A program made the translations under genes and the position numbers. This document shows, one piece after another, positions 1 to 19,873 of a stretch of DNA of 19,873 bases (position 1 is its first letter; each line of letters opens with the position of its first letter). The stretch lies in the IMG/VR virus record IMGVR_UViG_2695420411_000003. One strand, 5' to 3'. This DNA comes from a virus (taxonomy: Duplodnaviria > Heunggongvirae > Uroviricota > Caudoviricetes). Below the pieces are notes generated by a model. It was not told where the DNA came from. It saw only the letters and a list, made by a program, of their open reading frames with translations, and searched no databases.

Positions 1-584
1 CCGTCACCACAGTAAATGGCGGCATGATTCGGCACCGATGAACCAAAACAGCACAGCAGCACATCGCCCGGTTGTGCTGATGACAACGGCACCTGATACA
101 GCCCTGTGGCCTCCAGATTATCCAGATAGAGATTCTGACCGTGACGCCACCAGTCATCCTCGCGATGAAAATCCGGCATCTCAATCCCCGCCAGATGATA
201 AGCATCCCGGAACAGCGTGTAACAGTCCGTCACCCCGTGCTCAAAGCGCCGCCCGGTGAGATGCGGCACACAGCGGAACTTATGAATCGCCCCCCGGCAG
301 ACCAGCAACCACGGCAAATCACTCTGCACCTGCAGCCGCCGGTCAGCCTCACTCAGCCAGGGCAGACCACCGGGGTGGCTGTGGACCAGCGCCACAATCT
401 CACCCTGCATTTCTGCCTGCAGCCAGTCCTCCGGAGCCATCCGGAAATAATCCTCCGGCTCACCGGAGATATTCACGCAGGGAAAATATCTTTCCCCCTC
501 CGGCGTTCTCACCACGAAGCCGCACGACTCCGCTGGCGCACATCGCCGGGCGTGCGCCAGAATCGCTGATTCTGTCTGTGTCAT
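1..584 (-). CDS. K: Tail assembly protein K (lambda gpK-like), 3' end runs off the left edge of the window
   Basis: Reverse complement of 582-584 is ATG; hand translation gives MTQTESAILAHARRCAPAESCGFVV..., matching remembered lambda gpK N-terminus. Sits directly downstream of L as in lambda. Not in the ORF track because no stop lies inside the window. Confidence 0.85.
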   Translation of the reverse strand, partial: MTQTESAILAHARRCAPAESCGFVVRTPEGERYFPCVNISGEPEDYFRMAPEDWLQAEMQGEIVALVHSHPGGLPWLSEADRRLQVQSDLPWLLVCRGAIHKFRCVPHLTGRRFEHGVTDCYTLFRDAYHLAGIEMPDFHREDDWWRHGQNLYLDNLEATGLYQVPLSSAQPGDVLLCCFGSSVPNHAAIYCGD

Positions 585-589
585 GGGAT

Positions 590-1288
590 TTACTGCGAAA
601 GTTTGTTAATGGAAAGGAAGCCGCCAAAGTTGCCGACGTTATTGCGAAACTTACAGCCACTCAGGCATTTGCTGCATTTATCCTTCGTGATATCGGACGT
701 TGGCTGGTCATATTCATCCGCGACCGCCGGACCGTGATAACCGCACTCATCGCCGCGATAGGTCCAGGTGCAGGTGTTGGCCAGCATGATACGTCCCGGA
801 AAAACAGCGCCGTCCGTTTCCGTCGGCGTGGACAGTACAAAAGAGGCACTCACCGCGCTCAGTTCGCTGCACTGCTCAATGCGCCAGCGGCTGATCACCT
901 CCTGCTCCGGATCGGCGTCACTGTTTCCGTTGACGAAGTTCACCGCATCCAGAAAACGGGCGTAAACCTTACGCCGGACCACCGTTCCTCCGACCAGACT
1001 CTGCAGGTCTTCCGCCATCGCGGTGACCATGCCGTGCAGGTTAGAAACCGTCAGTGTCGGACGGGCAGCACTGCCCTTGCCGTTCAGTTCAAATCCCGTC
1101 CCCTGAATGGGATACGCCTGATACTGTCGCCCCTGCCAGGTGATCGGCTCACCTTTTTCGTTCTGCTCATTACAGAAAAAATAACGTTCTCCACCGACCA
1201 CTGTCAGATCGATTTCCCAGAGCACCACCTGGGCTGACTGAGTGAGGCGTGTCGTCTCATGATGTGTTTCCTGTGGAATATCCTGCAT
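590..1288 (-). CDS. L: Minor tail protein L (lambda gpL-like)
   Basis: 232-aa ORF MQDIPQETHHETTRLTQSAQVVLWEIDLT...GFLSINKLSQ, near-identical over long stretches to remembered lambda gpL; position between M and K. Confidence 0.9.
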   Translation of the reverse strand: MQDIPQETHHETTRLTQSAQVVLWEIDLTVVGGERYFFCNEQNEKGEPITWQGRQYQAYPIQGTGFELNGKGSAARPTLTVSNLHGMVTAMAEDLQSLVGGTVVRRKVYARFLDAVNFVNGNSDADPEQEVISRWRIEQCSELSAVSASFVLSTPTETDGAVFPGRIMLANTCTWTYRGDECGYHGPAVADEYDQPTSDITKDKCSKCLSGCKFRNNVGNFGGFLSINKLSQ

Positions 1289-1297
1289 CAGAGACTC

Positions 1298-1627
1298 CTA
1301 TGCCACGACCTGTTCAAAATCTGCCGTTATGGTTACCCACAACGCCCCCACGCTTGCCGACCATTTACGACAAACCACCCTGATCGGCTTCCAGTCATAA
1401 GGTGGCGTCCACTGAAATGCGCGGACGCCACCGTGCCGTTCCAGAAAGGCTTTTAAAGATGGGTGTTCACATTTACGAACACGTATCGTCACGCTGTAAG
1501 TCGACAACTGGTTATTCAGTCCCGCCGCACGACGCTGTTCATAACCATCGCCCAGCTTCACTGTCACCACTTTCGGCTCTGATACCACATTCATATCCGG
1601 GCGCACTTTCCAGTGAAACGTCTCCAT
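1298..1627 (-). CDS. M: Minor tail protein M (lambda gpM-like)
   Basis: 109-aa ORF METFHWKVRPDMNVVSEPKVVTVKLGDGYEQRRAAGLNNQ... resembles lambda gpM; its ATG (1625-1627) overlaps the TAA stop of the tape measure gene by 1 nt. Confidence 0.88.
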   Translation of the reverse strand: METFHWKVRPDMNVVSEPKVVTVKLGDGYEQRRAAGLNNQLSTYSVTIRVRKCEHPSLKAFLERHGGVRAFQWTPPYDWKPIRVVCRKWSASVGALWVTITADFEQVVA

Positions 1628-5391: not shown

Positions 5392-5404
5392 GTTCTCCAC
5401 CTGC

Positions 5405-5428
5405 AAAAAAGCCCCGGATAACCGGGGC
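5405..5428 (-). terminator. Intrinsic terminator-like hairpin between V and G
   Basis: Plus strand 5411-5428 gccccggataaccggggc is a perfect 7-bp GC stem with 4-nt loop; on the minus strand it is followed by TTTTTT (plus 5405-5410 aaaaaa). Lies between the V stop (5449) and the G start (5391). Confidence 0.6.
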
Positions 5429-5448
5429 AAATGATGAGTATCGTCCTG

Positions 5449-6192: not shown

Positions 6193-6203
6193 TGCCACCT
6201 CCT

Positions 6204-6605
6204 TTAATTCGTGTACGTGATCTGGTACGTGATTTCCGCCATCGCCCAGGTGGCCATCTCATTATCACGTTGATAGTTAAAACCGAGAGGGATCAGGGTG
6301 TCGATGAGTCCGGAAAGTGCCGGTATATCATTCAGAGCCGGGAAAATGGTGCTCTCCATCCACATATCCAGCTCTGAATCCGGTGCCTGTGCCCGGATGA
6401 AGACAGCAATATGCAGAACAGCCTGCCAGTCATCTTCATCCGTCATTTTTCCGGTGTACTGAGCATCACTCAGCCACACCGCCACGGCAGGCAGTTCCTG
6501 CGCATCAATAAATGCCGGAAGCCCGTCAAAAAACGTGGCGCTGTCTCCACACTGTTCCCGAAGGCGTGCCAGTACGGCCTGGCGGATTTGTGTATGTCGG
6601 TTCAT
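6204..6605 (-). CDS. U: Tail terminator protein U (lambda gpU-like)
   Basis: ORF ...ATFFDGLPAFIDAQELPAVAVWLSDAQYTG...PDSELDMWMES...IPALS...ITYQITYTN resembles lambda gpU. Start chosen at ATG 6603-6605, which overlaps the Z stop as ATGA. Confidence 0.85.
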   Translation of the reverse strand: MNRHTQIRQAVLARLREQCGDSATFFDGLPAFIDAQELPAVAVWLSDAQYTGKMTDEDDWQAVLHIAVFIRAQAPDSELDMWMESTIFPALNDIPALSGLIDTLIPLGFNYQRDNEMATWAMAEITYQITYTN

Positions 6606-7180
6606 CGGGTCAGCCATAACCTCAGTTGTTGTTTCAGTGCATACCCCAGCTGTTTCGGCATTTCCGCAGCAATGATGCGGTCGCGGGCATCTTCAAATGC
6701 CTGTGTCAGCGGTCCGGAAAGCGGGATTTTCACCACATCAATGGGGTAACGATTTTTGCCATCAATACGCCGCATCACATGCCAGCGACCATTCGCCAGT
6801 TGCTGAATAAACGCATCCCGGAAAAGATATTTACCCACCTTCAGCACACTGCCACGGTACTGCAGTTTTCCACCACGCCGGGCCAGTCTGACCCGGGCTG
6901 TCCCCAGCTTAATGGCGGGCAGATTGCCCCGGTTAACGCGGATCCTGGCCGTCATTTTTCCTGACGGACTGGCTTTAAACACCCGGACACGCTGACGTAC
7001 CAGTTTCAGGGGGATCCCTTTCACCTGGTTATCTCCCGCAACGGTATTCCCGGCAACCTGCCGGGTGGCAACCGAGACCGCTTTCTGTGCCACACGGTTT
7101 ATCGCCCATGCGCTGGCCTGTGGCACCATACGGGTATCAAGGCTGTTCAGATTGCGGATGGCATTCTCAAGCCCCTTCAT
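6602..7180 (-). CDS. Z: Head-tail joining / tail completion protein (lambda gpZ-like)
   Basis: 192-aa ORF between FII-like and U, same length and position as lambda gpZ; AGAGGTGTGGG precedes the ATG. Confidence 0.75.
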   Translation of the reverse strand: MKGLENAIRNLNSLDTRMVPQASAWAINRVAQKAVSVATRQVAGNTVAGDNQVKGIPLKLVRQRVRVFKASPSGKMTARIRVNRGNLPAIKLGTARVRLARRGGKLQYRGSVLKVGKYLFRDAFIQQLANGRWHVMRRIDGKNRYPIDVVKIPLSGPLTQAFEDARDRIIAAEMPKQLGYALKQQLRLWLTR

Positions 7181-7191
7181 CCCACACCTCT

Positions 7192-7467
7192 TTACTCAAT
7201 AAAGATCATTGGCTTACCGTTAAAACGTTCATGCCGTGTGACCGTCCATTGTTGTCCGTCATAAACAACGCGATCCCCGCGCCGTGGGCGGTATCCCGAA
7301 GAAAACACCACCAGAGAGACCGCAGGTCCGGACAGAGCATTCAGCTCTGCCAGTGTTTCGCCCGGGATCACAGCCATATCGACATCATTAATCGAGGCTG
7401 TCTTTCCCATCTTTCTGACCGTGATCGCATCCATACGCGCTGCCAGCCGGGAAAAGGGATCAGACAT
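7192..7467 (-). CDS. Head-tail connector protein (lambda gpFII-like)
   Basis: 91-aa ORF in the FII position (between head genes and Z); its ATG overlaps the last codons of the upstream gene by 8 nt. Family assignment is by position and size only. Confidence 0.6.
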   Translation of the reverse strand: MSDPFSRLAARMDAITVRKMGKTASINDVDMAVIPGETLAELNALSGPAVSLVVFSSGYRPRRGDRVVYDGQQWTVTRHERFNGKPMIFIE

Positions 7468-7793
7468 TGAGTTTTACCGGCACTTCTTCTGCACTGGTTC
7501 CGGCATCTGCCCAGACAACCCCGACCAGCGGATCAGAGCCGCTGTTAGTCAGCTGAACTTTTCCGGACTTCAGATAAACCTTCTTACCCGTTTTCATGTC
7601 ATCCGTTTTCAGTTTAGGCAGGATAAACACACCTTCGGTCATGCCGTCGCCTGTTTCACCCTGTGGAATATCGGTCAGCGCCACCGCAAAAACATCACCC
7701 ACCTGCACCAGATCTCCGCTGCTGATGGCTGCACTGGCAACAATCGCCACCGTTTTTCCTTCTTCTACAAAATTCTTTGCCATAACTGTCTCC
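7460..7793 (-). CDS. Small head-associated protein (possible decoration / head-completion protein), function unknown
   Basis: Start placed at internal ATG 7791-7793 (MAKNFVEEGKTVAIVASAAISSGDLVQVGDVFAVAL...) with GGAGA 7 nt upstream. Gly/Val-rich, about 111 aa, immediately after the major capsid gene. Not lambda gpFI-like. Confidence 0.5.
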
Positions 7794-7804
7794 GCACAGC
7801 CCCG

Positions 7805-7858
7805 TTCAGGGGCTGATTTCAGGTACAAAAAAAGCCCTTACGGGCCATCAGAGTTGTT
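7805..7858 (-). terminator. Tandem stem-loops after the major capsid gene, one terminator-like
   Basis: Minus-strand RNA: GGCCC-GUAA-GGGCU followed by UUUUUUU (plus 7837-7856), then a second 6-bp stem AGCCCC-UGAAC-GGGGCU (plus 7808-7826) without a U-tract. Both lie between the capsid stop (7870) and the next gene's RBS. Confidence 0.5.
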
Positions 7859-7869
7859 GTCTGCGACGT

Positions 7870-9879
7870 TTACGCCGTACATTTCACCAGACCGCGGTGA
7901 TCAACTGGCGCGACACCGGCGTCAATACGCACTTTCGTTGTCACGCCATCCACACTGAAGCCCTCCATCTGATCAATATATGGCGTATCCACACCGTTGA
8001 GATAAGCCACTTCAATCGTATCGGAGCCTTTTGACGCAGCCAGGTAGAAGGTGGTCTGGCTGTTATCATCAAGACGAGGCTCTGCAATAACGGTCGCAAA
8101 ATCTTTCACCGGGTTAATAATACCGGCGTTAATGTCAGCCCCCTTGACACTTGAGGAGCGAATGACCTGGTTAGCAACAGACTCCATCGCCGTCGGTACC
8201 AGTACGAACGCAGGACGAATATTCAGATGACGCTCCCCCTCTTTCTGAACGCGCATCAACTGGCGGGCTTTATCCAGCGATGCCACGTCCATTGCAGCGC
8301 TCTCCAGTACGTTTGCATGTTTCGCTTTATCGAACAGACTTACATTATCTGTGGAGATTTTCGGGTTAGACGTCAGAATGGCATAAACCAGATCGGCAAT
8401 AGTGGATTTCGCCGCACGGCCCAGTTTCATCGGGACATCGGTCAGCATATTCAGATCATCATTGATAATGGCCTGACGGGTGATACTGAACAGCTCGCCA
8501 TAGGTCGCCAGTGCAATAGTGGCCTGTTTATCTCCGGTGGTGACGTATTTATATTCCGCCCCTTCACGCACCTGACGCAGAGCACTGAAGCCACCCATAC
8601 CCACACGATGGGCAATTTTAAAATCAGACAACTGACCTTTCCGCGTCCACTGTTCATAGGTTTCAGGGGCATCTTCCCAGCCCTGCAGAATGGCTTTGTT
8701 CGCAACATCCAGCAGAATATTACCGAAGTCAGACGTACTGTGTGTGAACGCCGCACCGACCATCTGCATCGGGTTATAACTGGAAACCCCAATACCCCGT
8801 TCAGTCAGTGACATACGGGCATATTCACGCAGGGTCATCCCGTTGTAGACATTATCACGTTCGGTTTTTTCAAATCCGGCACGCGCCATCAGCGCCTGGC
8901 GGATCCCGTCCCCCACAAAATTACCGTTACCGGCATAAATATGAGCCGGGGTATTTTTATTGGATGGCGTGGACTCGCGCCCCATCTCGTTCAACAGCTT
9001 TTCGCGGGCCTGCTCCAGCGAACATTCAGGATCGGCAAGACACTGAGCCTGCAGCGTCTGATAACGCCCGCCAAACATGGCAAACAGATCATTAATACCG
9101 TTTACACGCGCTTTTTGCTCTGCCAGTACCTGCGCACGGATGCTGTTTTCATCCACCACGGGTGCTGCTGCCTGCACTGGCGTCCGGGAGGCTTCAGGTT
9201 CATTATCCTGTACGCGTGGAGCACTGTTGCGTGGCGGAGTAATCATGTTTCGAATGGATTCCGGCATCTTTTTAAATTCCTCTGTACGTTTTGACTGAAT
9301 ACATGCCATTGCCTTAACGGCTGGCGTTACCTGATCAGCAAATCCATGTGCCAGACATTCGGCACCGGACATCCAGGTCTCATCCGCCAGCATGGCAGCA
9401 ATTTCATCGGTGGTTTTCCCGGTTTTCTGTGCATAAGCGGGTAACAGAACCGCCTCAACTTTATCGAGCAGGTCGGCATAGGTGCGCATGTCCTCCGCAT
9501 CACCGCCCGTAAAGCCAAATGGTTTATGAATCATCATGAAGGTGTTTTCCGGCATAATGACCGGGTTTCCCACCATCGCAATGACCGACGCCATTGACGC
9601 CGCCACACCGTCGACATAAACGGTAATGGACGCACCATGTGTTTTCAGCGCATTAAAAATGGCGATGCCTTCAAAGACATCGCCACCCGGTGAATTAATA
9701 TGGAGATTAATGTGGGTGATATCGCCCAGTGCATTCAGATCACTGATAAACTGCTTCGCTGTAACACCCCAGAAACCAATCTCGTCATAAATATAAATAT
9801 CCGCGTCACTCTGGTGACCAGCCTGCATCCTGAACCAGGAATTATTCTTCGGACTGGTCGTCGGTGTGCTGCGGCTCAT
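7870..9879 (-). CDS. Prohead protease (ClpP/S14-like) fused to HK97-fold major capsid protein
   Basis: N-terminal part ...DIYIYDEIGFWGVTAKQF...INSPGGDVFEGIAIFNALK...MASVIAMVGNPVIMPENTFMMIHKP... looks like a ClpP-family serine protease; the C-terminal roughly 340 aa look like an HK97-type capsid protein. Start is uncertain: ATG 9877-9879 overlaps the portal by 38 nt, alternative ATG 9826-9828 lies 13 nt after the portal stop. The track start at 10089 is rejected because it reads deep into the portal. Confidence 0.8.
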   Translation of the reverse strand: MSRSTPTTSPKNNSWFRMQAGHQSDADIYIYDEIGFWGVTAKQFISDLNALGDITHINLHINSPGGDVFEGIAIFNALKTHGASITVYVDGVAASMASVIAMVGNPVIMPENTFMMIHKPFGFTGGDAEDMRTYADLLDKVEAVLLPAYAQKTGKTTDEIAAMLADETWMSGAECLAHGFADQVTPAVKAMACIQSKRTEEFKKMPESIRNMITPPRNSAPRVQDNEPEASRTPVQAAAPVVDENSIRAQVLAEQKARVNGINDLFAMFGGRYQTLQAQCLADPECSLEQAREKLLNEMGRESTPSNKNTPAHIYAGNGNFVGDGIRQALMARAGFEKTERDNVYNGMTLREYARMSLTERGIGVSSYNPMQMVGAAFTHSTSDFGNILLDVANKAILQGWEDAPETYEQWTRKGQLSDFKIAHRVGMGGFSALRQVREGAEYKYVTTGDKQATIALATYGELFSITRQAIINDDLNMLTDVPMKLGRAAKSTIADLVYAILTSNPKISTDNVSLFDKAKHANVLESAAMDVASLDKARQLMRVQKEGERHLNIRPAFVLVPTAMESVANQVIRSSSVKGADINAGIINPVKDFATVIAEPRLDDNSQTTFYLAASKGSDTIEVAYLNGVDTPYIDQMEGFSVDGVTTKVRIDAGVAPVDHRGLVKCTA

Positions 9880-11350
9880 GTCGTTTCGTTGCGGCACTGC
9901 TGCCTCCTTTATCACTGGCCGGATCGGTATCAAATACCAGATCCAGCTTGCGGTTTTCATCAATTTCGGCCTTGCGCCGACGTTTGACATCATCCGGATT
10001 ACGACCACCAGCACGTACCCAGTCTGATTCTGTCGCCGCTCCACCACGAATCTGGATTTTCCAGGCCTCAGCCTCCTTAACAGGGTCAATCCACGGCATC
10101 ACCGGTCCGGAATACACCGCGGTATACAGTGAAGAACGGTCAAGATCGCGGGGTAGCCTGATAACACCGGATGCCACAGCCTGTTTCAGCCAGGCACGAT
10201 ACATCGGACGGGTGACGGCACCAATAAACCAGTCCTGCAGGATCAGGTAGCCATCAGTGGATTCAACCAGCTCCTGACGCTGGGCGCTGTAAGTGCCGTT
10301 ATAGTTGCGCGCTGTACTGGAAAAACTCAGACGACTGCCCGCCGCCACGGCACGCAACTGACCATTACGAAAAGTTTCAAGGTTAGGATTGGGGCGATCC
10401 GACTTCACCATTCCGATTTCTTCGCCGGGTTTCAGATCATCGTAAATAATGCCTGGCTGAATGGTAAGCTCGCGTTCCTTATCCTTGCTGCCATTACCAT
10501 CCGCTTCATAGCTCTGCCCGTCGCCTTTCCGGATGTACATCCCCAGAGCAGCGGCGATCCTTGCTGCAGTCAGCTCAGAATCTTCATACTCTTTCAGAGC
10601 ACTGAGGCGGATCAGCACACCGGACAATAAAGACGTCCCGCGCATCTGGTGCAGACGGCGAACAAATTTAAGATGCAGCATTCGCTCTGCATCCACTTCT
10701 TTGGTTTCCATCTGCCGTCCGGATACGGGACGGCTTTTATACACCAGATATTTTTCGGGACGCCCCCAGTCATCAACAAACACGCCCTGATTCAGCCTGT
10801 TGCTCTCATCACTGGTCATGGGAATAAAGTCCGGCTCGAGCGCCTCCAGCCAGAAATGAACACCGGCAGAAGGCGTCAGGCTGTTTATGCGCCCGGAAAC
10901 CATCTGGGCAAACACCTCACCATCGCGCAGCCAGGTACGAAGCATCAGACGTTCCAGCATCGGACGGGTAAACTGCCCGGTGACTTCCGGGCTGACAGAC
11001 CATTCACTCCATCGGGTGCGAATCTCCGCAGCCAGGTCACGGGCAATGGCCCCATTGCGTAATACCGGATGTGGCTCGACAATAATCCCGTTTTTCCCCA
11101 CCACCCGTTCTTCCAGCTTGTCAAATACACCAATAACCAGATCGTGGTTGTTATCAAGGTAACGGGCCTGCTCACGTAACGACACGGCCCCGTACTGGCT
11201 TAACTGGTCGGCAGTTCGGTTCTCCCGTCGGGCTTTGTGTGTCCGCGTCGTTTTTACGGCCTCATAAGCCTGGATCACCGCACGGGAACGCAGCCTTGCC
11301 GCTTTCCATCCTGGTGAAAAAACGCCAATCACATCATCAAGAATTGCCAT
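9842..11350 (-). CDS. Portal protein
   Basis: About 500-aa ORF between gpW and the capsid gene. Start placed at ATG 11348-11350 (MAILDDVIGVF...), which overlaps the W stop (TGATG). The track extension to 11422 would overlap W. Does not resemble remembered lambda gpB in sequence; assignment is by size, position and acidic C-terminus. Confidence 0.8.
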   Translation of the reverse strand: MAILDDVIGVFSPGWKAARLRSRAVIQAYEAVKTTRTHKARRENRTADQLSQYGAVSLREQARYLDNNHDLVIGVFDKLEERVVGKNGIIVEPHPVLRNGAIARDLAAEIRTRWSEWSVSPEVTGQFTRPMLERLMLRTWLRDGEVFAQMVSGRINSLTPSAGVHFWLEALEPDFIPMTSDESNRLNQGVFVDDWGRPEKYLVYKSRPVSGRQMETKEVDAERMLHLKFVRRLHQMRGTSLLSGVLIRLSALKEYEDSELTAARIAAALGMYIRKGDGQSYEADGNGSKDKERELTIQPGIIYDDLKPGEEIGMVKSDRPNPNLETFRNGQLRAVAAGSRLSFSSTARNYNGTYSAQRQELVESTDGYLILQDWFIGAVTRPMYRAWLKQAVASGVIRLPRDLDRSSLYTAVYSGPVMPWIDPVKEAEAWKIQIRGGAATESDWVRAGGRNPDDVKRRRKAEIDENRKLDLVFDTDPASDKGGSSAATKRHEPQHTDDQSEE

Positions 11351-11562
11351 CAGAACCTCGCCAGCCGATACCCGGGATGCCCCCGTCGTCGTGTAATCAG
11401 AGCCGCAAGGCGGCGCTCCCACTCCTGCCGTCCCTGCCGGATCTCAGATAAGTTTTCCATGGTCATCTGCTGACCATTAAAGGTGACGGATTTTCCGTCC
11501 AGCACCGCCATTTCAGCTTCCGTATAACGCTGAATCATGGCTTCGATATCATTCTGGTTCAT
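11350..11562 (-). CDS. W: Head-tail joining protein (lambda gpW-like)
   Basis: About 70 aa, ends ...ALITRRRGHPGYRLARF (compare lambda gpW ...RRRGPAGFYV). Start at ATG 11560-11562, overlapping the terminase stop as ATGA, with GGAGG 6 nt upstream. Confidence 0.75.
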   Translation of the reverse strand: MNQNDIEAMIQRYTEAEMAVLDGKSVTFNGQQMTMENLSEIRQGRQEWERRLAALITRRRGHPGYRLARF

Positions 11563-13658
11563 AACCATCCTCCGGAAGTCAGCCAGGGGTTAACATCGTC
11601 AGTTACTGTTTTCTTCCGTTTTTGTTTTTTAACAGGCGTGGATACCGGTTCCGGTGAGGATGACGGTTCGGTACTGTCCGGGACACACTCCAGCCAGGTT
11701 TCCCGGCTCGCCCACTCCGGTGCATCCGGCCAGCGGATCTTTTCGTATCCATGCAGAATGACCAGAGCCTCGGCATACACCATCAGGTCAAAAGCTTCGT
11801 TGGCACCGCGACCCGGCTTACTCCATTTCCCGTCACTGCTCCGCTCTTCATACGTCAGTTCGTCGTAAAACCAGCTCCCCAGCCAGTCAGGGAAATGCAC
11901 ATAGCCGGGACCTGGCGAGTCACGCCATAACGCGTTATTCACCCGGTCTTTCAGTGCATCCGTCTGAAGAAGCCAGAGCGGCACATCACCTGCGGCCTGC
12001 GCCCGTCGGCCCGTTCGTCCGGTGTTATCAGGGAATGTACGGGTGATCAGTTTTGCGCGCCGGATGCTGTCGCCCTTAAACAGGTAAATACGTTTACCAA
12101 GGCCATCACGACGGCAACGACGCCAGAATTTATAGGCATTATCAGTGACCCCGTCTTCACCGCCGGAGTCCACCGCCATTGCCATCAGTCGCATTTGTTG
12201 AGAAGGATCGGAGGCCAGCGGCCAGCTTTTATGAAAAACATCCGTCAGCAGGACATCCCAGTCTTCCGGATAGCTGGCCGGATCAATTCGCTGGCTCTCC
12301 CCGTCGCTGTCACCGCGCAATGACTGCGTGATGTTGTAACGATCAATAATCCAGCGTTCGCCACGGCTGCCATAGCCCGTTACCTGAACCACAAAACGGC
12401 GATGACGTCCCGCCTGCACATCCACTGTCGCCACAAGAAAATTAACGCCATCCGGCACACTGCGGGAAGGAACTGGCTCTGCCCGCTGCTCAAGCAGTTC
12501 ACTTTTTCGTTGCTCCATGCTGGCGCGGGGAAGATAAGGTAATCCCCAGTCGGTGTTGATAACCGCCCTGAGTGTTTCTTCACTTCCTGTCGCTTCATAC
12601 TCCTGTTCTGCAGTCAGTAATTTGTAAACCAGTTGCGCCCAGGTCTGATACGCAGCAGCTGGCCCTTCCATCCAGAAACTGGCGATACGGGAGCGGCGCG
12701 GTTCACCGGAAACGTTGCCGTTACAATCAATGACCTGACCTTCACGCAACCAGACTCCTGCACTATTGAGCTCACGCTTTTTCTCCGCCGTGATAATGCC
12801 GCTGCAGTGCGGGCAAAGTAGATACGCCGCCTCACTGGCTTTAAAGGGATCCGGTTCATTACGGTAGCCGGTCATGGCATCCATGGCTGGCTGAAAATAT
12901 TCACCGCAGTGCGGACATGGCCAGTACCAGCGGCGGCGGTCACCACGATTGTAAAGGGAAAGAATACCAGTCGTCGGTGGCGCTTCATGAGGCGACTTAC
13001 GTCGCCATTTGCTGTCGCAGATGTCACGTCCCGGCGAGCTCTCCACCAGAGTCATCCCGGCGGACATAAATGTGGTGGTACGTTTTGAGGCCAGGGAGAA
13101 ACCATCACCCTCGCTGTCGATATTCTCCGGAAAACGGTCGTAATCGGTTAAGGCGACAAACCGGTAATCCGACGACGACATAATGTTGACCGAGGGCCAA
13201 CCAATTTTAAGGAACGAGCCATCCCTGAACGTCTTATCATGGACATTATTGTCATTACGACGTGGACTCATTCTTTTCTTTACCGCCGCACTGCTTCTGA
13301 ACGTTCTGTCGAGGCGCTTTTTTGAATGCTCGCGGGCCTTATCTTCGGTCATCTGCACAACGAGCATGTCCGAAGGATCGCAAACGATGGTATAGACAAT
13401 CCATCCATCGATCAGACCAATGGTCTTCCCTGTTCGCGCAGGACCAACAAAAATCACCGCATCGTATTCACGCGATGCCAGGCAGTTCATGGGCTCAATG
13501 ATGTAGGGTGTCAGTTCAGGATCCCATGGCACCGAGTTACCAGCCCCCTTGGGAACACGCATGAATTTTTTAACAGCCTCCGAAATCGGCATGCGACGTG
13601 GTGGGGAAAATCCTGCCGATATGTCCCTTCCCAAATTTCGGGCTGATGAAAAACCCAT
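11559..13658 (-). CDS. Terminase large subunit (lambda gpA family)
   Basis: 699-aa ORF with Walker A-like VGPARTGKT, paired cysteines CPHCGEY...CPHCSG, and an acidic nuclease-like C-terminal half; GAGGAATA precedes the ATG; directly downstream of the small subunit. Confidence 0.88.
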   Translation of the reverse strand: MGFSSARNLGRDISAGFSPPRRMPISEAVKKFMRVPKGAGNSVPWDPELTPYIIEPMNCLASREYDAVIFVGPARTGKTIGLIDGWIVYTIVCDPSDMLVVQMTEDKAREHSKKRLDRTFRSSAAVKKRMSPRRNDNNVHDKTFRDGSFLKIGWPSVNIMSSSDYRFVALTDYDRFPENIDSEGDGFSLASKRTTTFMSAGMTLVESSPGRDICDSKWRRKSPHEAPPTTGILSLYNRGDRRRWYWPCPHCGEYFQPAMDAMTGYRNEPDPFKASEAAYLLCPHCSGIITAEKKRELNSAGVWLREGQVIDCNGNVSGEPRRSRIASFWMEGPAAAYQTWAQLVYKLLTAEQEYEATGSEETLRAVINTDWGLPYLPRASMEQRKSELLEQRAEPVPSRSVPDGVNFLVATVDVQAGRHRRFVVQVTGYGSRGERWIIDRYNITQSLRGDSDGESQRIDPASYPEDWDVLLTDVFHKSWPLASDPSQQMRLMAMAVDSGGEDGVTDNAYKFWRRCRRDGLGKRIYLFKGDSIRRAKLITRTFPDNTGRTGRRAQAAGDVPLWLLQTDALKDRVNNALWRDSPGPGYVHFPDWLGSWFYDELTYEERSSDGKWSKPGRGANEAFDLMVYAEALVILHGYEKIRWPDAPEWASRETWLECVPDSTEPSSSPEPVSTPVKKQKRKKTVTDDVNPWLTSGGWL

Positions 13659-13666
13659 TATTCCTC

Positions 13667-14194
13667 CTAGAGACTCTCTCCTTCCTCATCAGGAATTAAT
13701 TCAGCAGCACAAGCCTCGTAGGATTTTTCCTGAAGAGTGTATCGCAGGTCATCAATGGCCTGCTGTACAACGCCAACGGCCTGAGGAGTCAGGGCGCAAT
13801 CGCGTTCAAGAACATCCGGAATTGTCTCCAGAACCTGGACGACAGCCTTTCTCATGGACGAATAGACGATGACTACTTCATCAACGGGGATGAGTTTTCG
13901 CTGCTCCTTTTCCAGCTTGATCCTTTCATTTTCCGACTGGTACCAGTCCTTTCTCTCTTTCGGCTCCATACGGGATGGATCATGAACAGAGTCTGCTGCC
14001 TCATGCTTCACACTAAACAGGGCAGGCCCGACATGCTGCAGGGCGTAAACGGGGTTCCCCCTGACAGTCGCAGCCACAGGAGTGTTGGCCGCGAGGAGCC
14101 GTTTTTTTACTGTGTCCCAGTGAAGCCCAAAGGCCTCGGCGATTTTAAAAACACTCCAGTAATAAGCATCACCGATCCCGCTCACATTTGACAT
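13667..14194 (-). CDS. Terminase small subunit (lambda Nu1 / Noh-like)
   Basis: Start at internal ATG 14192-14194 (MSNVSGIGDAYYWSVFKIAEAFGLHWDTVKKRL, a winged-HTH-like N-terminus resembling Nu1) with GGAG 6 nt upstream; immediately upstream of the large subunit and about 200 bp from the cos candidate, as in lambda. Confidence 0.8.
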   Translation of the reverse strand: MSNVSGIGDAYYWSVFKIAEAFGLHWDTVKKRLLAANTPVAATVRGNPVYALQHVGPALFSVKHEAADSVHDPSRMEPKERKDWYQSENERIKLEKEQRKLIPVDEVVIVYSSMRKAVVQVLETIPDVLERDCALTPQAVGVVQQAIDDLRYTLQEKSYEACAAELIPDEEGESL

Positions 14195-14359
14195 AAGCAA
14201 CTCCATCTGGCAGGTGAAAATCAGGTTTATTTATATATTTCAATTAATTGCAAACTAGTCTAATGACAGGGAGAAAAAAATATTGTACAGCTGAAAAGAG
14301 AAATAACTTTTAATTATCAATAAATTACCAAACATGCTGCCGCCGCCATGGAAATGCAA

Positions 14360-14395
14360 AAACTAGCCTTTTTCCGCGACGCTCCCGCCCCGTGG
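14360..14395 (-). other. Candidate cosN cohesive-end site
   Basis: Minus-strand sequence ACGGGGCGGGAGCGTCGCGGAAAAAGG resembles remembered lambda cosN ACGGGGCGGCGACCTCGCGGGTTTTCG, and lies about 200 bp upstream of the small terminase start (lambda: about 190 bp). The AT-rich stretch 14207-14330 between them is where cosB/IHF sites would be. Confidence 0.45.
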
Positions 14396-14756
14396 CAGGG
14401 ACCCCCACTGGGAGGACCCGACAGCCTGACAACCGTGACGAGCATCTGAAACAGAGCTTTACATAATGGCATGGGGATAATTCAGAAGGACATCACAGCA
14501 TGCCCACACAAATTAGTGTGAGTGTCCTGTTTCTTACTACGCGCAGGACTGACGAGCATGAGGGGAAAATACGAGAACCGAAATGCCTTATCTTCAGAAA
14601 TGCAGCCGGCATCCGAACTGGACGATATTGTAAATTCACCTAAATACGAGGCATTGCTGTAGTTGAATTGCATTGCTGTATTAGCCTGACAGTGACAGAA
14701 TACGATATTGACTCTGTCACTTGTGAAATGGTCAGAATGGTTAGCAGTTATGGTGA

Positions 14757-14963
14757 TCAGTCAACCACCAGGGAATAATCCTTCGTATTCTTATCGTGCT
14801 TTACTAACGCGGCCTCAATTGCCCTGAATGCTTCCAGAGACACTTGATGTTCTATACATGCAATTACAACATCCGGGTAACCCATCGAAATGGTGCTATT
14901 AAGCATAGTTTTTACACGAACCTGCTCCTGGGAGGGGGCATCAGTGTATTGATCTTTATGCAT
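14757..14963 (-). CDS. Hypothetical small protein (moron), 68 aa
   Basis: [44 protein letters not shown]... with GGAG 8 nt upstream of the ATG; protein-like composition in an AT-rich block. No family recognised. Confidence 0.45.
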
Positions 14964-15165
14964 TTTGTCGCTCCATGCGTTTGCTCTTCACTTACGGCTA
15001 AAAATATAACGTCAAATCACTCAGCATGAAAGAGTTAAAGATTCAGCGCGTTTCCCTTACATAATCTGTCGTTTGTATTCTCTTCAGGCATACCGGAAAG
15101 ACTAGGTATTGTCACACAACCAATACCATCGACAATCGAGATTTATACCTATTCGGTAATGTTTA

Positions 15166-15196
15166 AATATAACAAAACCCCGTAAAAACGAGGTTT
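15166..15196 (-). terminator. Terminator-like hairpin downstream of the GnsA/GnsB-family gene
   Basis: Minus-strand RNA AACCUCG-UUUUUA-CGGGGUU (7-bp stem including one G-U pair) followed by UUUGUUAUAU. Confidence 0.45.
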
Positions 15197-15256
15197 ATGG
15201 GTAATTTGTATTGTTGAATAGCATCTGATGAGAAATTGATGCTAATACTAAACAGA

Positions 15257-15430
15257 CTAGATTAAATCAATCTTGATATCATAGCTTTCAAGACCAGTCA
15301 TTTTTTCCCGTGCAGTAAACTGGATACTGGTAACTTCTTTCCCGGTCTTTTTCTTAAGCTCAATGATTTTTTTTGTTATATATTCAGAAATATCTGCTTC
15401 TGTTTTTGTTTTTAACTCTTCAATGTTCAT
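15257..15430 (-). CDS. GnsA/GnsB-family small protein
   Basis: MMNIEELKTKTEADISEYITKKIIELKKKTGKEVTSIQFTAREKMTGLESYDIKIDLI closely resembles remembered E. coli GnsA; AGAGGA directly upstream. The track N-terminal extension is rejected. Confidence 0.8.
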   Translation of the reverse strand: MNIEELKTKTEADISEYITKKIIELKKKTGKEVTSIQFTAREKMTGLESYDIKIDLI

Positions 15431-15602
15431 CATTTCCTCTTTTAGTCTGTTATGACTTTCCTGGTACACAGTAGTGTCAATTATATGGAGCAAACGTATA
15501 AAAGATAAGATGAAACATCGCAATAATCAACATACGACGGTCTAAATTTCACACAAACAGATAAAGATGATTATCATTTATTATCAATGCATTAGAATCA
15601 AA

Positions 15603-15794
15603 TCAATTCAAGAGTCTCATTGCTGCTTCCAGAATTTCTTCTGAAGTTACATGTCGATCCGCTGCTACATAAATGACTTTATGATCTCCGGTCAGAGATG
15701 GAAACCCTGCAGCCATTACAGTGAGGTGTGTTGTTTCGCCATTTGGATATTCACGCATGATGGTGTTAACTCCGGTCATCACTGGCACTACCAT
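15603..15794 (-). CDS. Hypothetical small protein upstream of the gns gene (possible YnfN/YmcE-like)
   Basis: 63-aa ORF, protein-like composition, co-oriented and adjacent to the gns gene as ymcE/gnsA and ynfN/gnsB are in E. coli K-12 (from memory). Start codon uncertain; no strong RBS found. Confidence 0.35.
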   Translation of the reverse strand: MVVPVMTGVNTIMREYPNGETTHLTVMAAGFPSLTGDHKVIYVAADRHVTSEEILEAAMRLLN

Positions 15795-15878
15795 TGCTGG
15801 TTCAGAGTTAAAAAAAACTATTATTTTTTTTCATAATGTTACCGTAATATGTGAGTATCCATCGACTAGACACTAAGC

Positions 15879-15900
15879 AAAAAAGCTCCCGAAGGAGCCT
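15879..15900 (-). terminator. Intrinsic terminator downstream of the csp gene and small Cys-rich ORF
   Basis: Minus-strand RNA GGAGC-UUCG-GGAGC (5-bp stem, UUCG tetraloop) followed by UUUUUU (plus 15879-15884 aaaaaa); begins 7 nt after the stop of ORF 15907..16161. Confidence 0.55.
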
Positions 15901-15906
15901 TCATTT

Positions 15907-16122
15907 TCACTTTCTTAAATCTAACGATAGACGGCTAACATTTAAGTATTGTGAAATATTATCAAATGTAATCATCATTGATTTACAAAAGATACATTTT
16001 GCCCCGAAAGGATTCCTGTCAGAAACATCAAAAGATGATGTTCTATACTGAGAACCATGGCAACACGGGCATCTAAAGTGAATATGGTTTGTAATATTTT
16101 CTACCTCAAAGTGCCACAACAT
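15907..16122 (-). CDS. Hypothetical small Cys-rich (zinc-ribbon-like) protein
   Basis: Motif HFRCPCCHG...(about 20 aa)...CIFCKS. An ORF of this length is unexpected in AT-rich DNA, and its stop is immediately followed by the terminator. Against it: no clear RBS, and the first ATG (16120-16122) overlaps the csp 3' end by 17 nt; the track start at 16161 is a TTG. Confidence 0.35.
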
Positions 16123-16321
16123 GAACAGCCGCGGGGCCTTTAGGTCCGTTCTCAATACCAAATTCGACTTCCTGATTCTCAGTTAACGTTTTGAAATCGT
16201 TGCTCTGAATAGCTGAGAAATGGACAAACACATCTTTGCTACCATCTTTCGGCGTGATGAAACCAAAACCTTTTTCAGGGTTAAACCATTTCACTAAACC
16301 AGTCATTTTGTTAGACATCAT
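16106..16321 (-). CDS. CspA-family cold-shock protein
   Basis: [69 protein letters not shown] with RNP motifs KGFGFI and VFVHF; true start is probably the second ATG (16316-16318). A roughly 360-bp AT-rich upstream region is consistent with the long 5' UTR typical of csp genes. Confidence 0.9.
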
Positions 16322-16681
16322 TATTACCTTTTGAAGAAGTTAGCCCTTGGGCAGAATGGTCCGAAAAAAAATATCAGAGAGAAAAACCAACAAGGAAATC
16401 TCAAGAGGTACAAATAATAAAATTATAACAATGACTGCTTCAGATAATTTTGTAACAAACCAGAACACCATTAACGCATGATTAACCAACCATAGCAAGG
16501 ATTACTTTTGTAAAGAAAAACACACGAATGAAACAATAGCTTTATTTATTAATAAAACGTGTCATTCTGTCTAATGACCTTTTATCTTACCCTTAAGATT
16601 TCAAGGATTTTGACTCATGGAAGAGTCCTTTTTATTTAAATTTCACATTCAGCGCTAAAAATAATCCGATTTAATATTAAT

Positions 16682-17709
<1,028 letters not shown>

Positions 17710-17822
17710 GGATATTTATCAGGATTTATCGGCTTCAAATCCCCGGATATGTTAAATCTTACCTCACCAGTGATGGGCACTGGCGGGAGGAGGATGTCAA
17801 TCTGATAAACACAGAGGCGACT

Positions 17823-18236
17823 ATGGATTACACAAATCTACCTAAACAAACTTTTGCTGATTTAATCGCACTCAGGCAAGCAGTCGTAGCTCTAATCAAC
17901 TTGTTGCCGGAGAAGGAAAAGGAATTAGTTAAAGCGCTTCTTAACAGAACTGCCGCCGATTTTTCATCATATCCACTGACAGATGACCTTGCGGACCTTC
18001 CTGAATTAATTGCAGCGTCCGCCATTAAGCTTACTGAAGAGATTTACCCTCCTCAAAAATCTTCACAAAATTCCTGCGAGAGTAACTTCAATGCAATAAT
18101 CGTAAAACGCCGCAAACTGCTCATCGCGGCGTTTTTTTTCATCTTCAGAAGGAATCAGCACCGACAATTTTTTATTCAGATCAGCGACGCTGCCCTCCAG
18201 TTTTTCAATGGGCGATTCAATATCATCTTTTTCTGA
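17823..18236 (+). CDS. Hypothetical plus-strand ORF converging on the lysis genes; reality and true 3' end uncertain
   Basis: ATG 17823 with AGAGG 6 nt upstream. The first roughly 80 aa are protein-like; the remaining roughly 57 aa overlap the minus-strand 173-aa gene, look like antisense translation (F/I/R-rich), and contain a plus-strand terminator-like hairpin. Confidence 0.3.
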   Translation: MDYTNLPKQTFADLIALRQAVVALINLLPEKEKELVKALLNRTAADFSSYPLTDDLADLPELIAASAIKLTEEIYPPQKSSQNSCESNFNAIIVKRRKLLIAAFFFIFRRNQHRQFFIQISDAALQFFNGRFNIIFF

Positions 18237-18584
18237 CCGCAATGCCGTCGGTGGCGTCTTCAGAGAACCAGTAATTCTTCCCGGTAGCTTTCCTTTGTAG
18301 GTTATCCACACATTCTGCGCCTCTAAAATTATGGGGCGCTTTTCCGGCGACAGCTCATCCCCTTCACATAACCCGGCAGCAACATCCAGGAAGACCTGTC
18401 TGATGCTCCTTCTGGCTGCTGCCTCATAAAACTCCAGCGCGGCACCTTCAACACGGTCCAGCGAGATGTCCAGGTCAAAAATTTCACCGTCAAAGCGTTT
18501 TTTGTCCCGTAACGCTAAAGTTACCGTAACTTTATTCTCAAAATTGCGGATCCCTTTCACAATCAGTTCATAGTTTTGAGTCAT
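18063..18584 (-). CDS. Hypothetical 173-aa soluble protein encoded between holin and endolysin, translationally coupled to the holin
   Basis: ATG 18582-18584 lies 4 nt after the holin TAA stop, with GGGGAGAG about 7 nt upstream inside the holin 3' end. No transmembrane segment, charged coiled-coil-like C-terminal region. No family recognised. Confidence 0.6.
   Translation of the reverse strand: MTQNYELIVKGIRNFENKVTVTLALRDKKRFDGEIFDLDISLDRVEGAALEFYEAAARRSIRQVFLDVAAGLCEGDELSPEKRPIILEAQNVWITYKGKLPGRITGSLKTPPTALRSEKDDIESPIEKLEGSVADLNKKLSVLIPSEDEKKRRDEQFAAFYDYCIEVTLAGIL
18104..18138 (+). terminator. Terminator-like hairpin, plus-strand polarity, inside the 3' end of the 173-aa gene
   Basis: aacgccgc-aaactgctcatc-gcggcgtt (8-bp stem, 12-nt loop) followed by 8 T on the plus strand; only 4 T follow it on the minus strand. 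Confidence 0.4.
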
Positions 18585-18588
18585 TGAA

Positions 18589-18804
18589 TTACTCTCCCCG
18601 TGCAGCCTTACGCTTGTCTTCTTTAATCTTGAAATAAAGATTTGTCAGATACGTCAGCAGGCCAAACACCAGACTACCCAGCACACCTATTGCCGCCCAC
18701 TGTGAGGGCGTGACTTTATCGAGCAACTGTAAAAACCAGTACCCGGCACTACCTGCTGAGGTGCCATAGGCGACACCCGTTGTTAACTTATCCATGGATT
18801 TCAT
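18589..18804 (-). CDS. S: Class II holin / pinholin (phage 21 S21-like) with dual-start motif
   Basis: [71 protein letters not shown] closely resembles remembered S21; the Met1-Lys-Ser-Met4 start is the antiholin/holin dual-start arrangement. The gene starts 4 nt from the assembly gap, so its RBS and promoter are missing. Confidence 0.85.
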
Positions 18805-18808
18805 AACC

Positions 18809-18818
18809 NNNNNNNNNN
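18809..18818. other. Assembly gap (10 N)
   Basis: Literal run of n in the sequence. Confidence 0.99.
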
Positions 18819-19233
18819 CGTCAGCTCAATCCGCGACGGTGCTGCCGGTGCGGCGATCCGGAACGATACCGATGCCGGATCGCCCTGCTGTCCCCACGCA
18901 TTTACCGCCCGGACCGTCAGCCTGTAGTTCCCCAGCGCCAGTTGCGTGAAGCGGTATGTGGTTTCCGTCGTCCTGGCCGTGCTGACCAGCCGCTCACTGC
19001 CGTCATCCGCTGCCACGGTCAGGCGAAGCATAAAGCTCACGCCCTTCACCACCTTCGGCGTGTCCCATCGCGCCAGCACCTGATATTCCCCGCTGTCTGC
19101 GGTGACTTCGGCGGTCAGATGCTGCACTGCTGGCGGCGTGACACCATTCACCGTGCCGCTCTGGTCACCGTCAAAGTGCGCCCCGTTATCCACGATGGCT
19201 TCTTTCTCCGGTACATGCTGCACGGCAGTGATG
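18819..19233 (-). CDS. J: Internal fragment of a tail tip / host specificity protein (lambda gpJ-like), bounded by gaps
   Basis: Translation ...TYRFTQLALGNYRLTVRAVNAWGQQGDPASVSFRIAAPAAPSRIELT matches a remembered fibronectin-III-like segment of lambda J; truncated at both ends by N runs. Confidence 0.7.
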
Positions 19234-19243
19234 NNNNNNNNNN
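19234..19243. other. Assembly gap (10 N)
   Basis: Literal run of n in the sequence. Confidence 0.99.
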
Positions 19244-19244
19244 T

Positions 19245-19403
19245 GAGCTGCTGCACCATATTCCTGAACAACTGAGTAAACGAGAGAGGTACACCGACAA
19301 ATGGCAGCGACGCACACACTCCCTCTGGCGTCACCGGGCATGGCACGCATCTGCCTTTACGGGGATTTACAACGATTTGGCCGCCGCATCGACCTTCGAG
19401 TGA
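19245..19403 (+). CDS. K: C-terminal fragment of tail assembly protein K, plus-strand copy
   Basis: ELLHHIPEQLSKRERYTDKWQRRTHSLWRHRAWHASAFTGIYNDLAAASTFE matches remembered lambda gpK C-terminus; begins at the gap. Confidence 0.8.
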   Translation, partial: ELLHHIPEQLSKRERYTDKWQRRTHSLWRHRAWHASAFTGIYNDLAAASTFE

Positions 19404-19873
19404 AAACGGGGTCCGAAGCCATCCGGGCGCTGGCCATGCAGAACCCGGCGTTTCGTCAGAAACTGAGCGACGGCTGGTACCAGGTACGCATTGCCGGGCG
19501 TGATGCAGGTGAAACCGAATTGTCTGCCCGTCTTAATGAGCCGCTGGCAAATGGTGCCGTGATCCACATCGTGCCGCGTCTGGCGGGAGCTAAAAGTGGC
19601 GGTGTGTTTCAGGTGGTGCTGGGGGCGGCGCTGATTGCGGTGGCATGGTGGAACCCTGTGGGCTGGCTGGGTGCCGCGGCTGTATCGGGCATGTATGCGG
19701 CAGGGGCCAGTATGATCCTGGGCGGAGTGGCGCAGATGCTGGCACCGAAAGCCAGGACGCCCACGGCAGCAAGTACAGATAACGGCAAACAGAACACCTA
19801 TTTCTCGTCACTGGATAACATGGTTGCCCAGGGCAATGTTCTGCCCGTTCTGTACGGTGAAATGCGCGTGGGG
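19301..19873 (+). CDS. I: Tail assembly protein I (lambda gpI-like), 3' end runs off the window
   Basis: MAATHTLPLASPGMARICLYGDLQRFGRRIDLRVKTG...GKQNTYFSSLDNMVAQGNVLPVLYGEMRVG is near-identical to remembered lambda gpI; GAGAGAGG upstream; overlaps the K 3' end in another frame. Absent from the ORF track because no stop lies inside the window. Confidence 0.88.
   Translation, partial: MAATHTLPLASPGMARICLYGDLQRFGRRIDLRVKTGSEAIRALAMQNPAFRQKLSDGWYQVRIAGRDAGETELSARLNEPLANGAVIHIVPRLAGAKSGGVFQVVLGAALIAVAWWNPVGWLGAAAVSGMYAAGASMILGGVAQMLAPKARTPTAASTDNGKQNTYFSSLDNMVAQGNVLPVLYGEMRVG

What the first reader, a model, noticed from the sequence alone, without database searches (positions are those of the whole stretch)
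18809..19873. Scaffold gaps and orientation conflict: K is present twice, on opposite strands
Two 10-N gaps bound a 415-bp J-like fragment (minus) and a 630-bp K-C-terminus/I fragment (plus). The main contig starts with K on the minus strand, reading leftward toward I and J, yet the right-hand fragments carry K/I on the plus strand. Adjacency and orientation across the gaps are therefore scaffolding artefacts, most likely from collapse or mis-joining of repeated lambdoid prophage tail genes, or fragments of a second prophage. The holin is cut off 4 nt upstream of its start, so the antiterminator and late promoter are missing. Any synteny claim across 18809 would be wrong.
Basis: seen in the sequence. 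Interest (0 to 1): 0.5.

Follow-up and report, generated by a model that had tools for sequence, protein, structure and literature searches.

The report
Mis-joined contigs in draft prophage record
The right-hand 1 kb of this window is two small contigs glued to an 18.8-kb E. coli prophage contig with 10-N spacers in the wrong place and orientation, so it is a draft-assembly artefact and not a biological feature.

Summary
Two runs of exactly 10 N (18809-18818, 19234-19243) separate an 18,808-nt lambdoid late-region contig (c1) from a 415-nt internal piece of tail-tip gene J on the minus strand (c2). They also separate it from a 630-nt piece carrying the 3' end of K and 191 codons of I on the plus strand (c3).

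One detail in the title is wrong: K is split, not present twice. Reverse-complementing 1-584 and appending 19244-19403 gives one uninterrupted 744-nt, 247-codon K gene, with no missing and no repeated base. That join is colinear in 4,304 finished E. coli genomes. In three finished genomes c3 sits directly to the left of position 1, and c2 lies 1,889 nt further on.

The window is the complete NCBI draft record JRRU01000009.1 (GCA_001413535.1). Sibling assemblies carry the same prophage piece at 100% identity. They break it at varying positions, always with 10 N, and a different unrelated neighbourhood follows in each assembly (8 of 8 on one side, 9 of 9 on the other).

So adjacency across these gaps carries no biological information. 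Interest is very low, except as a warning: a spurious 151-aa gene call spans both gaps.

The parts
1..584 (-). 5' part of tail-tip assembly gene K (codons 1-194 plus 2 nt). It is cut off by the start of the record.
   Evidence: Translation. Pfam Prok-JAB, and NlpC/P60 truncated at model position 74 of 105. It corresponds to the 'C40 family peptidase' CDS in L001, L122 and L123.
590..1288 (-). Minor tail gene L, intact. Sibling assemblies break inside it, at window positions 925-989.
   Evidence: Pfam Phage_tail_L, E 3e-99. Sibling break points.
18589..18804 (-). Class II (phage 21 type) holin, 71 aa, complete. Only 4 nt of its leader (18805-18808) remain, so its ribosome-binding site and everything upstream are not in the record.
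   Evidence: Relatives continue CCACCTCGCAGA... here, which is the complement of the Shine-Dalgarno sequence.
18809..18818 (.). 10-N spacer 1, an artificial contig join.
   Evidence: The same 10-N spacer occurs in 17 sibling loci, at other break points.
18819..19233 (-). Contig c2: an internal fragment of tail-tip gene J (about codons 586-723 of 1137, Ig-like domain). It has the same orientation as c1 but is placed on the wrong side of it.
   Evidence: It maps 1,889 nt beyond the end of c3 in L001, L122 and L123.
19234..19243 (.). 10-N spacer 2, an artificial contig join.
19244..19403 (+). 3' part of K (last base of codon 195, codons 196-247, stop). It is the exact continuation of the reverse complement of position 1.
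   Evidence: The joined ORF is 247 aa. NlpC/P60 becomes complete, 1-105 of 105, and rises from 30.1 to 49.2 bits. The coordinates are adjacent in three finished genomes. The join is colinear in 4,304 genomes. The exact joined protein is on record and colinear on an independent contig.
19301..19873 (+). 5' 191 codons of tail assembly gene I (215 codons in relatives). It overlaps the end of K and runs off the end of the record.
   Evidence: Pfam Lambda_tail_I. The start matches the annotated CDS start in L001.
18801..19256 (-). Spurious 151-aa gene call that crosses both N spacers. It is a by-product of the artefact.
   Evidence: It is the gene at 618-1073 of L132, which is the window reversed. 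The ORF listing shows the corresponding N-spanning ORF at 18801-19346.

Best explanation
The window is one complete draft-genome record, NCBI JRRU01000009.1 from E. coli assembly GCA_001413535.1. It was built by stringing three separately assembled contigs together with fixed 10-N spacers.

- c1 (1-18808) is the late region of a Qin-like / mEp460-like lambdoid prophage. It reads on the minus strand from the holin to the middle of K.
- c3 (19244-19873) is the true left-hand neighbour of c1, but it is placed at the far right and flipped.
- c2 (18819-19233) is a piece of J. In the real order it lies about 1.9 kb beyond c3, on the left of c1.

The real order, in c1 orientation, is therefore: c2, then about 1,889 nt that were not assembled, then the reverse complement of c3, then c1.

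Shown: the exact join; the positions in finished genomes; the identity of the record; the variable break points and inconsistent neighbours in sibling assemblies; and that these pieces are multi-copy across E. coli genomes.

Inferred: that the breaks arose because short reads could not resolve tail and lysis genes shared by several lambdoid prophages in the same genome. Also inferred: that the scaffolder grouped the three pieces using some real linkage but got side and orientation wrong.
For: - N runs and piece sizes.
- Joining the reverse complement of 1-584 to 19244 onward gives an uninterrupted 247-codon K. K is 744 nt in L001, L122 and L123, and here it is 584 + 160 nt.
- The NlpC/P60 domain goes from 1-74 of 105 to 1-105 of 105 after joining.
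- The joined 1,330 nt aligns as one piece at 100% coverage in 4,304 finished genomes.
- In L001, L122 and L123 the first base of c3 is the base directly next to the first base of c1. c2 lies 1,889 nt beyond the end of c3, in c1 orientation.
- The exact joined protein exists (P0001), on a metagenome contig that is gap-free across the junction.
- The window equals JRRU01000009.1: 19,873 nt, 100% identical, with N runs in the same places.
- Eighteen sibling loci were examined. In 17 of them the same prophage piece, 99.99-100% identical, stops at window 925/927/929/989 or 18255/18313/18317/18319/18742. Each stop is followed by 10 N and then DNA that differs between all assemblies.
- c2 and c3 are multi-copy, at median 2 places per genome and up to 12.
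Against: - No reads are available, so the copy number of c2, c3 and the ends of c1 in the source genome itself was not measured.
- c2 is only 95.9% identical to J in the two prophages closest to c1 (L001, L123). It is 99.8% identical to J in a prophage whose L/K region is only 90% like c1 (L122). It may therefore come from another prophage, or from a collapsed mix of copies.
- The three pieces are true near-neighbours, which random concatenation would rarely give. The joining procedure was therefore not purely arbitrary in this record, and I could not reconstruct it.
- The contig ends abut with zero overlap. This points to an assembler that cuts at graph branch points, but the assembler is unknown.
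Confidence: 0.94

Rival explanations
1. c2, and possibly c3, represent a second lambdoid prophage of the same genome, or a collapsed consensus of several copies. On this reading their placement next to c1 reflects linkage to another copy. The scaffold would then be correct for that copy and merely uninformative for c1.
For: The K/I and J segments occur at a median of 2-3 places per E. coli genome, up to 12-15. The best J matches for c2 lie in a prophage type different from c1 (99.8% in L122 against 95.9% in L001 and L123). One sibling (L142) shows a second lambdoid early region (O, P, NinE, RusA) in this lineage.
Against: c3 starts at exactly the base where c1 stops, in frame, and restores a K of the canonical 744 nt. 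That is expected only if c3 is, or includes, the neighbour of c1. A minus-strand J followed by a plus-strand K/I cannot belong to one intact prophage. 10-N joins in sibling assemblies are demonstrably inconsistent.
Confidence: 0.25
2. A genuine rearrangement: an inversion or deletion mediated by recombination between prophages truncated K and moved an inverted K 3' end / I segment and a J remnant next to the lysis cassette.
For: Lambdoid prophages in E. coli are known substrates for such recombination (general knowledge, not tested here). The window by itself cannot exclude it.
Against: - Homologous recombination would leave intact hybrid genes, not a K cut between the second and third base of a codon whose missing part reappears with no loss or overlap.
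- Every junction that would document the rearrangement is an N run.
- Near-identical sibling strains break elsewhere.
- One sibling reads straight from the Q-family antiterminator region into the holin (L141).
Confidence: 0.02
3. The break 4 nt upstream of the holin is caused by an insertion sequence (IS1) sitting just upstream in this strain, rather than by prophage-prophage repeats.
For: An IS1 lies with its end 82 nt upstream of the holin start in the finished relative CUPF06. An IS1 InsA gene lies about 760 nt upstream of the holin in sibling JRRI01000005.1. IS1 is multi-copy in E. coli (general knowledge).
Against: The IS1 boundary in the relatives is not at the window's break point. Other siblings break 66-553 nt further inside, within the holin or the DUF1327 gene, so the repeated stretch there includes phage sequence. 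The holin allele is about 10% diverged from the closest prophages, which marks a mosaic boundary.
Confidence: 0.15

Closest known systems
Repeat-induced contig fragmentation and mis-scaffolding of lambdoid prophages in short-read E. coli draft assemblies
   Same: Fixed-length N spacers. Small (415 and 630 nt) contigs made of multi-copy tail genes. A broken gene whose other half is elsewhere in the same record. Break points and neighbours that vary between assemblies of near-identical strains.
   Different: Nothing of substance. The one less usual detail is that the contig ends abut with zero overlap, unlike the k-mer overlaps left by many de Bruijn assemblers. That comparison is from my own knowledge and was not tested.
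Phage lambda tail-tip module L-K-I-J
   Same: Same gene order and overlaps once the pieces are re-ordered. K has JAB/MPN + NlpC/P60 domains, I has the Lambda_tail_I domain, and J has its Ig-like domain. K overlaps I as annotated in finished genomes.
   Different: In the record the module is cut in K, in I and twice in J. About 1.9 kb (the I 3' end and the first 585 or so codons of J) and the J 3' part are missing.
Qin prophage / phage 21-type lysis cassette (essQ-ydfR-rrrQ-rzpQ) with cspI-ynfQ-ynfN-gnsB accessory genes
   Same: Finished relatives annotate these very genes opposite window 14.7-18.8 kb. Pfam finds the P21 holin, DUF1327, phage lysozyme and DUF2514.
   Different: Unlike the defective Qin of K-12 (from memory, not tested), this element carries a full head and tail module. 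That module is 96-98% identical to phages cdtI, Tritos and mEp460.

Membership tests
Assembly / scaffolding artefact (contigs joined by spacer Ns) | Junctions are runs of N of a fixed conventional length, not real sequence. | tested here: met
   There are two runs of exactly 10 N. The same 10-N run is at every break in 17 sibling loci.
Assembly / scaffolding artefact (contigs joined by spacer Ns) | The sequences on the two sides of a junction are not adjacent, in that order and orientation, in finished genomes. | tested here: met
   In L001, L122 and L123, c2 and c3 map to the left of c1, with c3 reversed. Neither maps to the right of the holin.
Assembly / scaffolding artefact (contigs joined by spacer Ns) | A gene broken at a contig end is completed exactly by another contig of the same record. 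| tested here: met
   K is 584 nt (c1) + 160 nt (c3) = 744 nt, giving a 247-aa open frame with zero gap and zero overlap. The join is colinear in 4,304 genomes. The domain is completed.
Assembly / scaffolding artefact (contigs joined by spacer Ns) | Independent assemblies of near-identical strains disagree on break points and on what lies across the spacer. | tested here: met
   Break points are at 925-989 and at 18255-18742. The flanks are all different in 8 of 8 and 9 of 9 assemblies.
Assembly / scaffolding artefact (contigs joined by spacer Ns) | The small contigs are repeats in the source genome (elevated read depth). | not testable with these tools
   No reads are available. The indirect evidence is that these segments are present at a median of 2-3 and up to 12-15 places per finished E. 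coli genome.
Genuine duplication of K on opposite strands | The two copies share homologous sequence. | tested here: not met
   There is no similarity between c3 and c1 beyond chance 12-20-mers. The two pieces cover complementary, non-overlapping codon ranges.
Lambda-type tail-tip genes K, I, J | Family-specific domains above Pfam gathering thresholds, and lambda gene order. | tested here: met
   Scores against cut-offs: Prok-JAB 53 bits (25), NlpC/P60 49.2 bits (23), Lambda_tail_I 82.4 bits (23.8), Ig_J 148 bits (29). The order L-K-I-J is seen in finished relatives.

The most novel reading that the evidence does not exclude
The placement of c2 and c3 to the right of the holin reflects real read-pair links to a second lambdoid prophage lying close to this one and head-to-head with it. 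If so, the strain carries a prophage-prophage inversion or a tandem prophage array that short reads collapsed.
Probability: 0.03. Interest if true: 0.15.

Novelty: not a real feature. Interest (0 to 1): 0.04.

Why it matters
It matters only as quality control.

- No synteny, gene-neighbourhood or 'truncated gene' inference should be drawn across 18809-18818 or 19234-19243.
- K should not be scored as a pseudogene or as a duplicate.
- The holin's missing promoter, antiterminator and ribosome-binding site are absences of assembly, not of biology.
- A spurious 151-aa ORF spanning both gaps (18801-19256, minus) has already been called on this record. Such chimeric 'proteins' can pollute protein databases.
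- In the sibling assemblies from the same accession series examined here (GCA_0014129xx-0014137xx), each multi-megabase record has a 10-N spacer at the end of this prophage piece, with unrelated DNA beyond it. Long-range context from them should be treated with caution.

Tried and rejected
- **IMG/VR scan across the first N gap.** An exact-pattern scan found nothing, so the record is not there in this form, or literal Ns are not matched.
- **IMG/VR scan for the last 30 nt of c1.** It gave at least 120 contigs, none of 19,873 nt. They were useful only to show what normally follows the holin leader.
- **Literature search.** Searches for the WGS accession prefixes gave nothing relevant, so the project and the assembler remain unidentified.
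- **Context look-up of the joined K protein.** I replaced it with an exact-sequence look-up and the contig of that hit.
- **Look-up of the exact L protein.** It returned only the window's own record, so no sibling contig carrying L-K-I-J at 100% identity could be retrieved to assign c2.
- **k-mer overlaps between contig ends.** I looked for suffix-prefix overlaps of 6-200 nt in all orientations and found none.
- **Paired-end versus mate-pair orientation mix-up.** I considered it and rejected it by reasoning only. It would move c3 to the right of c1 without flipping it, which is not what is seen.
- **Circular reading of the record.** The cyclic order c2-c3-c1 is correct, but with three pieces that has a 50% chance, and c3 is still inverted.
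- **tRNA and Rfam scans.** They found nothing bearing on the gaps.

Full report
**What is in the sequence**

The window contains exactly two runs of N, each 10 long, at 18809-18818 and 19234-19243. They divide it into three pieces:
- c1 = 1-18808 (51% G+C)
- c2 = 18819-19233 (415 nt, 64% G+C)
- c3 = 19244-19873 (630 nt, 60% G+C)

All recognisable genes of c1 lie on the minus strand. Reading downward from the right end they are:
- a 71-aa phage-21-type holin (18589-18804; PF04971)
- a DUF1327 protein
- a lysozyme
- a DUF2514 (Rz-like) protein
- a cspI / ynfQ / ynfN / gnsB-type accessory cluster
- a DUF1441 protein in the small-terminase position
- large terminase, portal, a ClpP-protease/capsid fusion, tail genes and a tape measure
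- M, L (590-1288), and the first 194 codons of K (584 down to 1)

The holin start codon is 4 nt from the first N, so even its ribosome-binding site is missing. Relatives continue CCACCTCGCAGA at that point.

c2 has a single open frame, on the minus strand. It encodes the Ig-like domain of tip-attachment protein J (Pfam Ig_J, E 1e-43).

c3 carries two genes on the plus strand: the last 52 codons and stop of K (to 19403), and, overlapping it, the first 191 codons of I (19301-19873; Lambda_tail_I).

**K is split, not duplicated**

The reverse complement of 1-584 ends ...TGT GGT GAC GG, and c3 begins T GAG CTG CTG. Joined, they read through as one 247-codon frame ending in a stop.

- K is 744 nt in three finished genomes. 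Here it is 584 + 160 nt.
- The NlpC/P60 domain is cut at model position 74 of 105 in the c1 part alone. It becomes complete (1-105 of 105) after joining, rising from 30.1 to 49.2 bits.
- No part of c2 or c3 is similar to any part of c1, and no contig ends overlap by 6 nt or more.

The title's 'K is present twice' is therefore incorrect. The window holds the two complementary halves of one gene, on opposite strands at opposite ends of the record.

**Is the join real?**

- A 1,330-nt sequence made of the reverse complement of 1-700 plus c3 aligns as a single piece, at 100% coverage, in 4,304 of 5,426 finished E. coli genomes.
- In three finished genomes (CUPF06 = L001, CV839-06 = L122, PCN061 = L123) the base matching c3 position 1 is directly next to the base matching c1 position 1, with c3 reversed relative to c1.
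- In all three, c2 lies exactly 1,889 nt beyond the far end of c3, in the same orientation as c1.
- The exact 247-aa joined protein is on record. It sits on an independent metagenome contig that is gap-free across the junction.

A fragment starting by chance at precisely the base where another contig ends, in frame, has odds of roughly one in the length of a prophage times two orientations.

The true order, in c1 orientation, is: c2, then about 1.9 kb that was not assembled, then the reverse complement of c3, then c1. The record instead gives c1, c2, c3.

**Where the window comes from**

Exact-protein look-ups identified the window as the complete NCBI draft record JRRU01000009.1 of assembly GCA_001413535.1. 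That record is 19,873 nt long and 100% identical, with the N runs at the same places.

The tape-measure and DUF1441 proteins are shared exactly with a series of sibling assemblies: JRRI, JRRM, JRRN, JRRY, JRRZ, JRSB, JRSD, JRSE, JRSG and JRSJ. In these, the same prophage piece is 99.99-100% identical to c1 but stops at different places.

- On the tail side it stops inside L, at window 925, 927, 929 or 989.
- On the lysis side it stops at 18255, 18313, 18317, 18319 or 18742.
- Every stop is followed by exactly 10 N and then unrelated chromosomal DNA. Examples from the Pfam content of the called genes are pyruvate formate-lyase genes, an Hha/YbaJ pair and a phage-shock (Psp) operon.
- No two assemblies share the foreign flank: 8 of 8 differ on one side and 9 of 9 on the other.

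Only JRRI01000005.1 reads through without Ns. There a Q-family antiterminator, a lipocalin gene, a ybgA-like gene and an IS1 InsA gene precede the holin, much as in CUPF06 and PCN061.

This shows directly that, in this accession series, a 10-N run is a contig-concatenation spacer. What lies across it is not biological adjacency.

**Why the breaks are there (inferred)**

- The K/I and J segments occur at a median of 2-3 and up to 12-15 places per finished E. coli genome.
- Break points that vary among near-identical strains are what repeat-limited short-read assembly produces.
- The c1 core that every sibling assembles is about 990-18255. The two c1 ends extend into L/K and into DUF1327/holin.
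- The holin itself is about 10% diverged from the prophages that otherwise match c1 best, which marks a mosaic boundary.
- An IS1 near the holin in relatives could contribute to the right-hand break, but it does not coincide with it.

I could not measure read depth, identify the assembler, or explain why this scaffold groups three true near-neighbours yet misplaces them.

c2 cannot be assigned with confidence. It is 95.9% identical to J of the prophages closest to c1. It is 99.8% identical to J of a prophage whose L/K region is only 90% like c1. It may belong to a second prophage or be a collapsed consensus.

**Comparison with what is known, and verdict**

Biologically this is an ordinary lambdoid prophage late region. 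It has Qin / phage-21-type lysis genes, and a head-tail module 96-98% identical to phages cdtI, Tritos and mEp460. Its tail-tip genes L-K-I-J are lambda-type.

Its interpretation is supported, and its own proposed test comes out positive. Nothing here is novel.

The practical consequences are:
- K should not be called truncated or duplicated.
- No neighbourhood inference should cross the N runs.
- The 151-aa gene call at 18801-19256, which spans both gaps, is spurious.

Noticed in passing
window 18801-19256 (minus); L132 618-1073: The gene calls held for this public record include a 151-aa 'protein' that starts in c3, runs through both N spacers and all of c2, and ends over the holin start codon. 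It is a chimeric product of the artefact. The ORF listing shows the equivalent N-spanning ORF at 18801-19346.
   Followed up: partly
window 16060-16476 (minus): A full-length match to the Rfam cspA thermoregulator (RF01766, 109.8 bits against a gathering score of 78). It covers the leader and coding region of a prophage-borne cold-shock gene (cspI-like, CDS 16106-16321), which is followed by ynfQ-, ynfN- and gnsB-like accessory genes.
   Followed up: no
window 18501-18808: The holin end of c1 has 29-30 mismatches per 308 nt (about 10%) against the two finished prophages that match the rest of the lysis cassette with 0-5 mismatches per 500 nt. This is a sharp mosaic boundary lying close to where sibling assemblies break.
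   Followed up: partly
window 18063-18584 (minus) and 17823-18236 (plus): The DUF1327 (YdfR-like) ORF is 173 aa here, with the domain at residues 1-112. In finished relatives the annotation at the same start is a 336-nt 'incomplete' pseudogene. This exact 173-aa sequence is on record only for this assembly. An overlapping antisense 137-aa ORF is called as a gene in every sibling assembly.
   Followed up: no
window 590-1288 (minus): The exact 232-aa L protein was found in no record other than the window's own. Sibling assemblies stop inside this gene, so its 3' half (window 590 to about 925) may be a consensus of several prophage copies rather than one real allele.
   Followed up: no
L124-L131, L133-L140, L142 (NCBI JRR*/JRS* assemblies): In all 17 loci drawn from these 1-4.7-Mb sibling records, a 10-N spacer follows this prophage piece and unrelated, mutually different DNA lies beyond it. 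Long-range synteny from those records is therefore unreliable.
   Followed up: yes
L001 27892-28660 (approx.); L141 4359-4631: An IS1 copy sits between the Q-family antiterminator region and the holin in the finished relative CUPF06, with its end 82 nt upstream of the holin start. An IS1 InsA gene also lies there in sibling JRRI01000005.1. PCN061 has an IS66-family element in the large terminase gene and an IS3 in the ybgA-like gene. Relatives of this prophage thus carry several IS insertions.
   Followed up: partly
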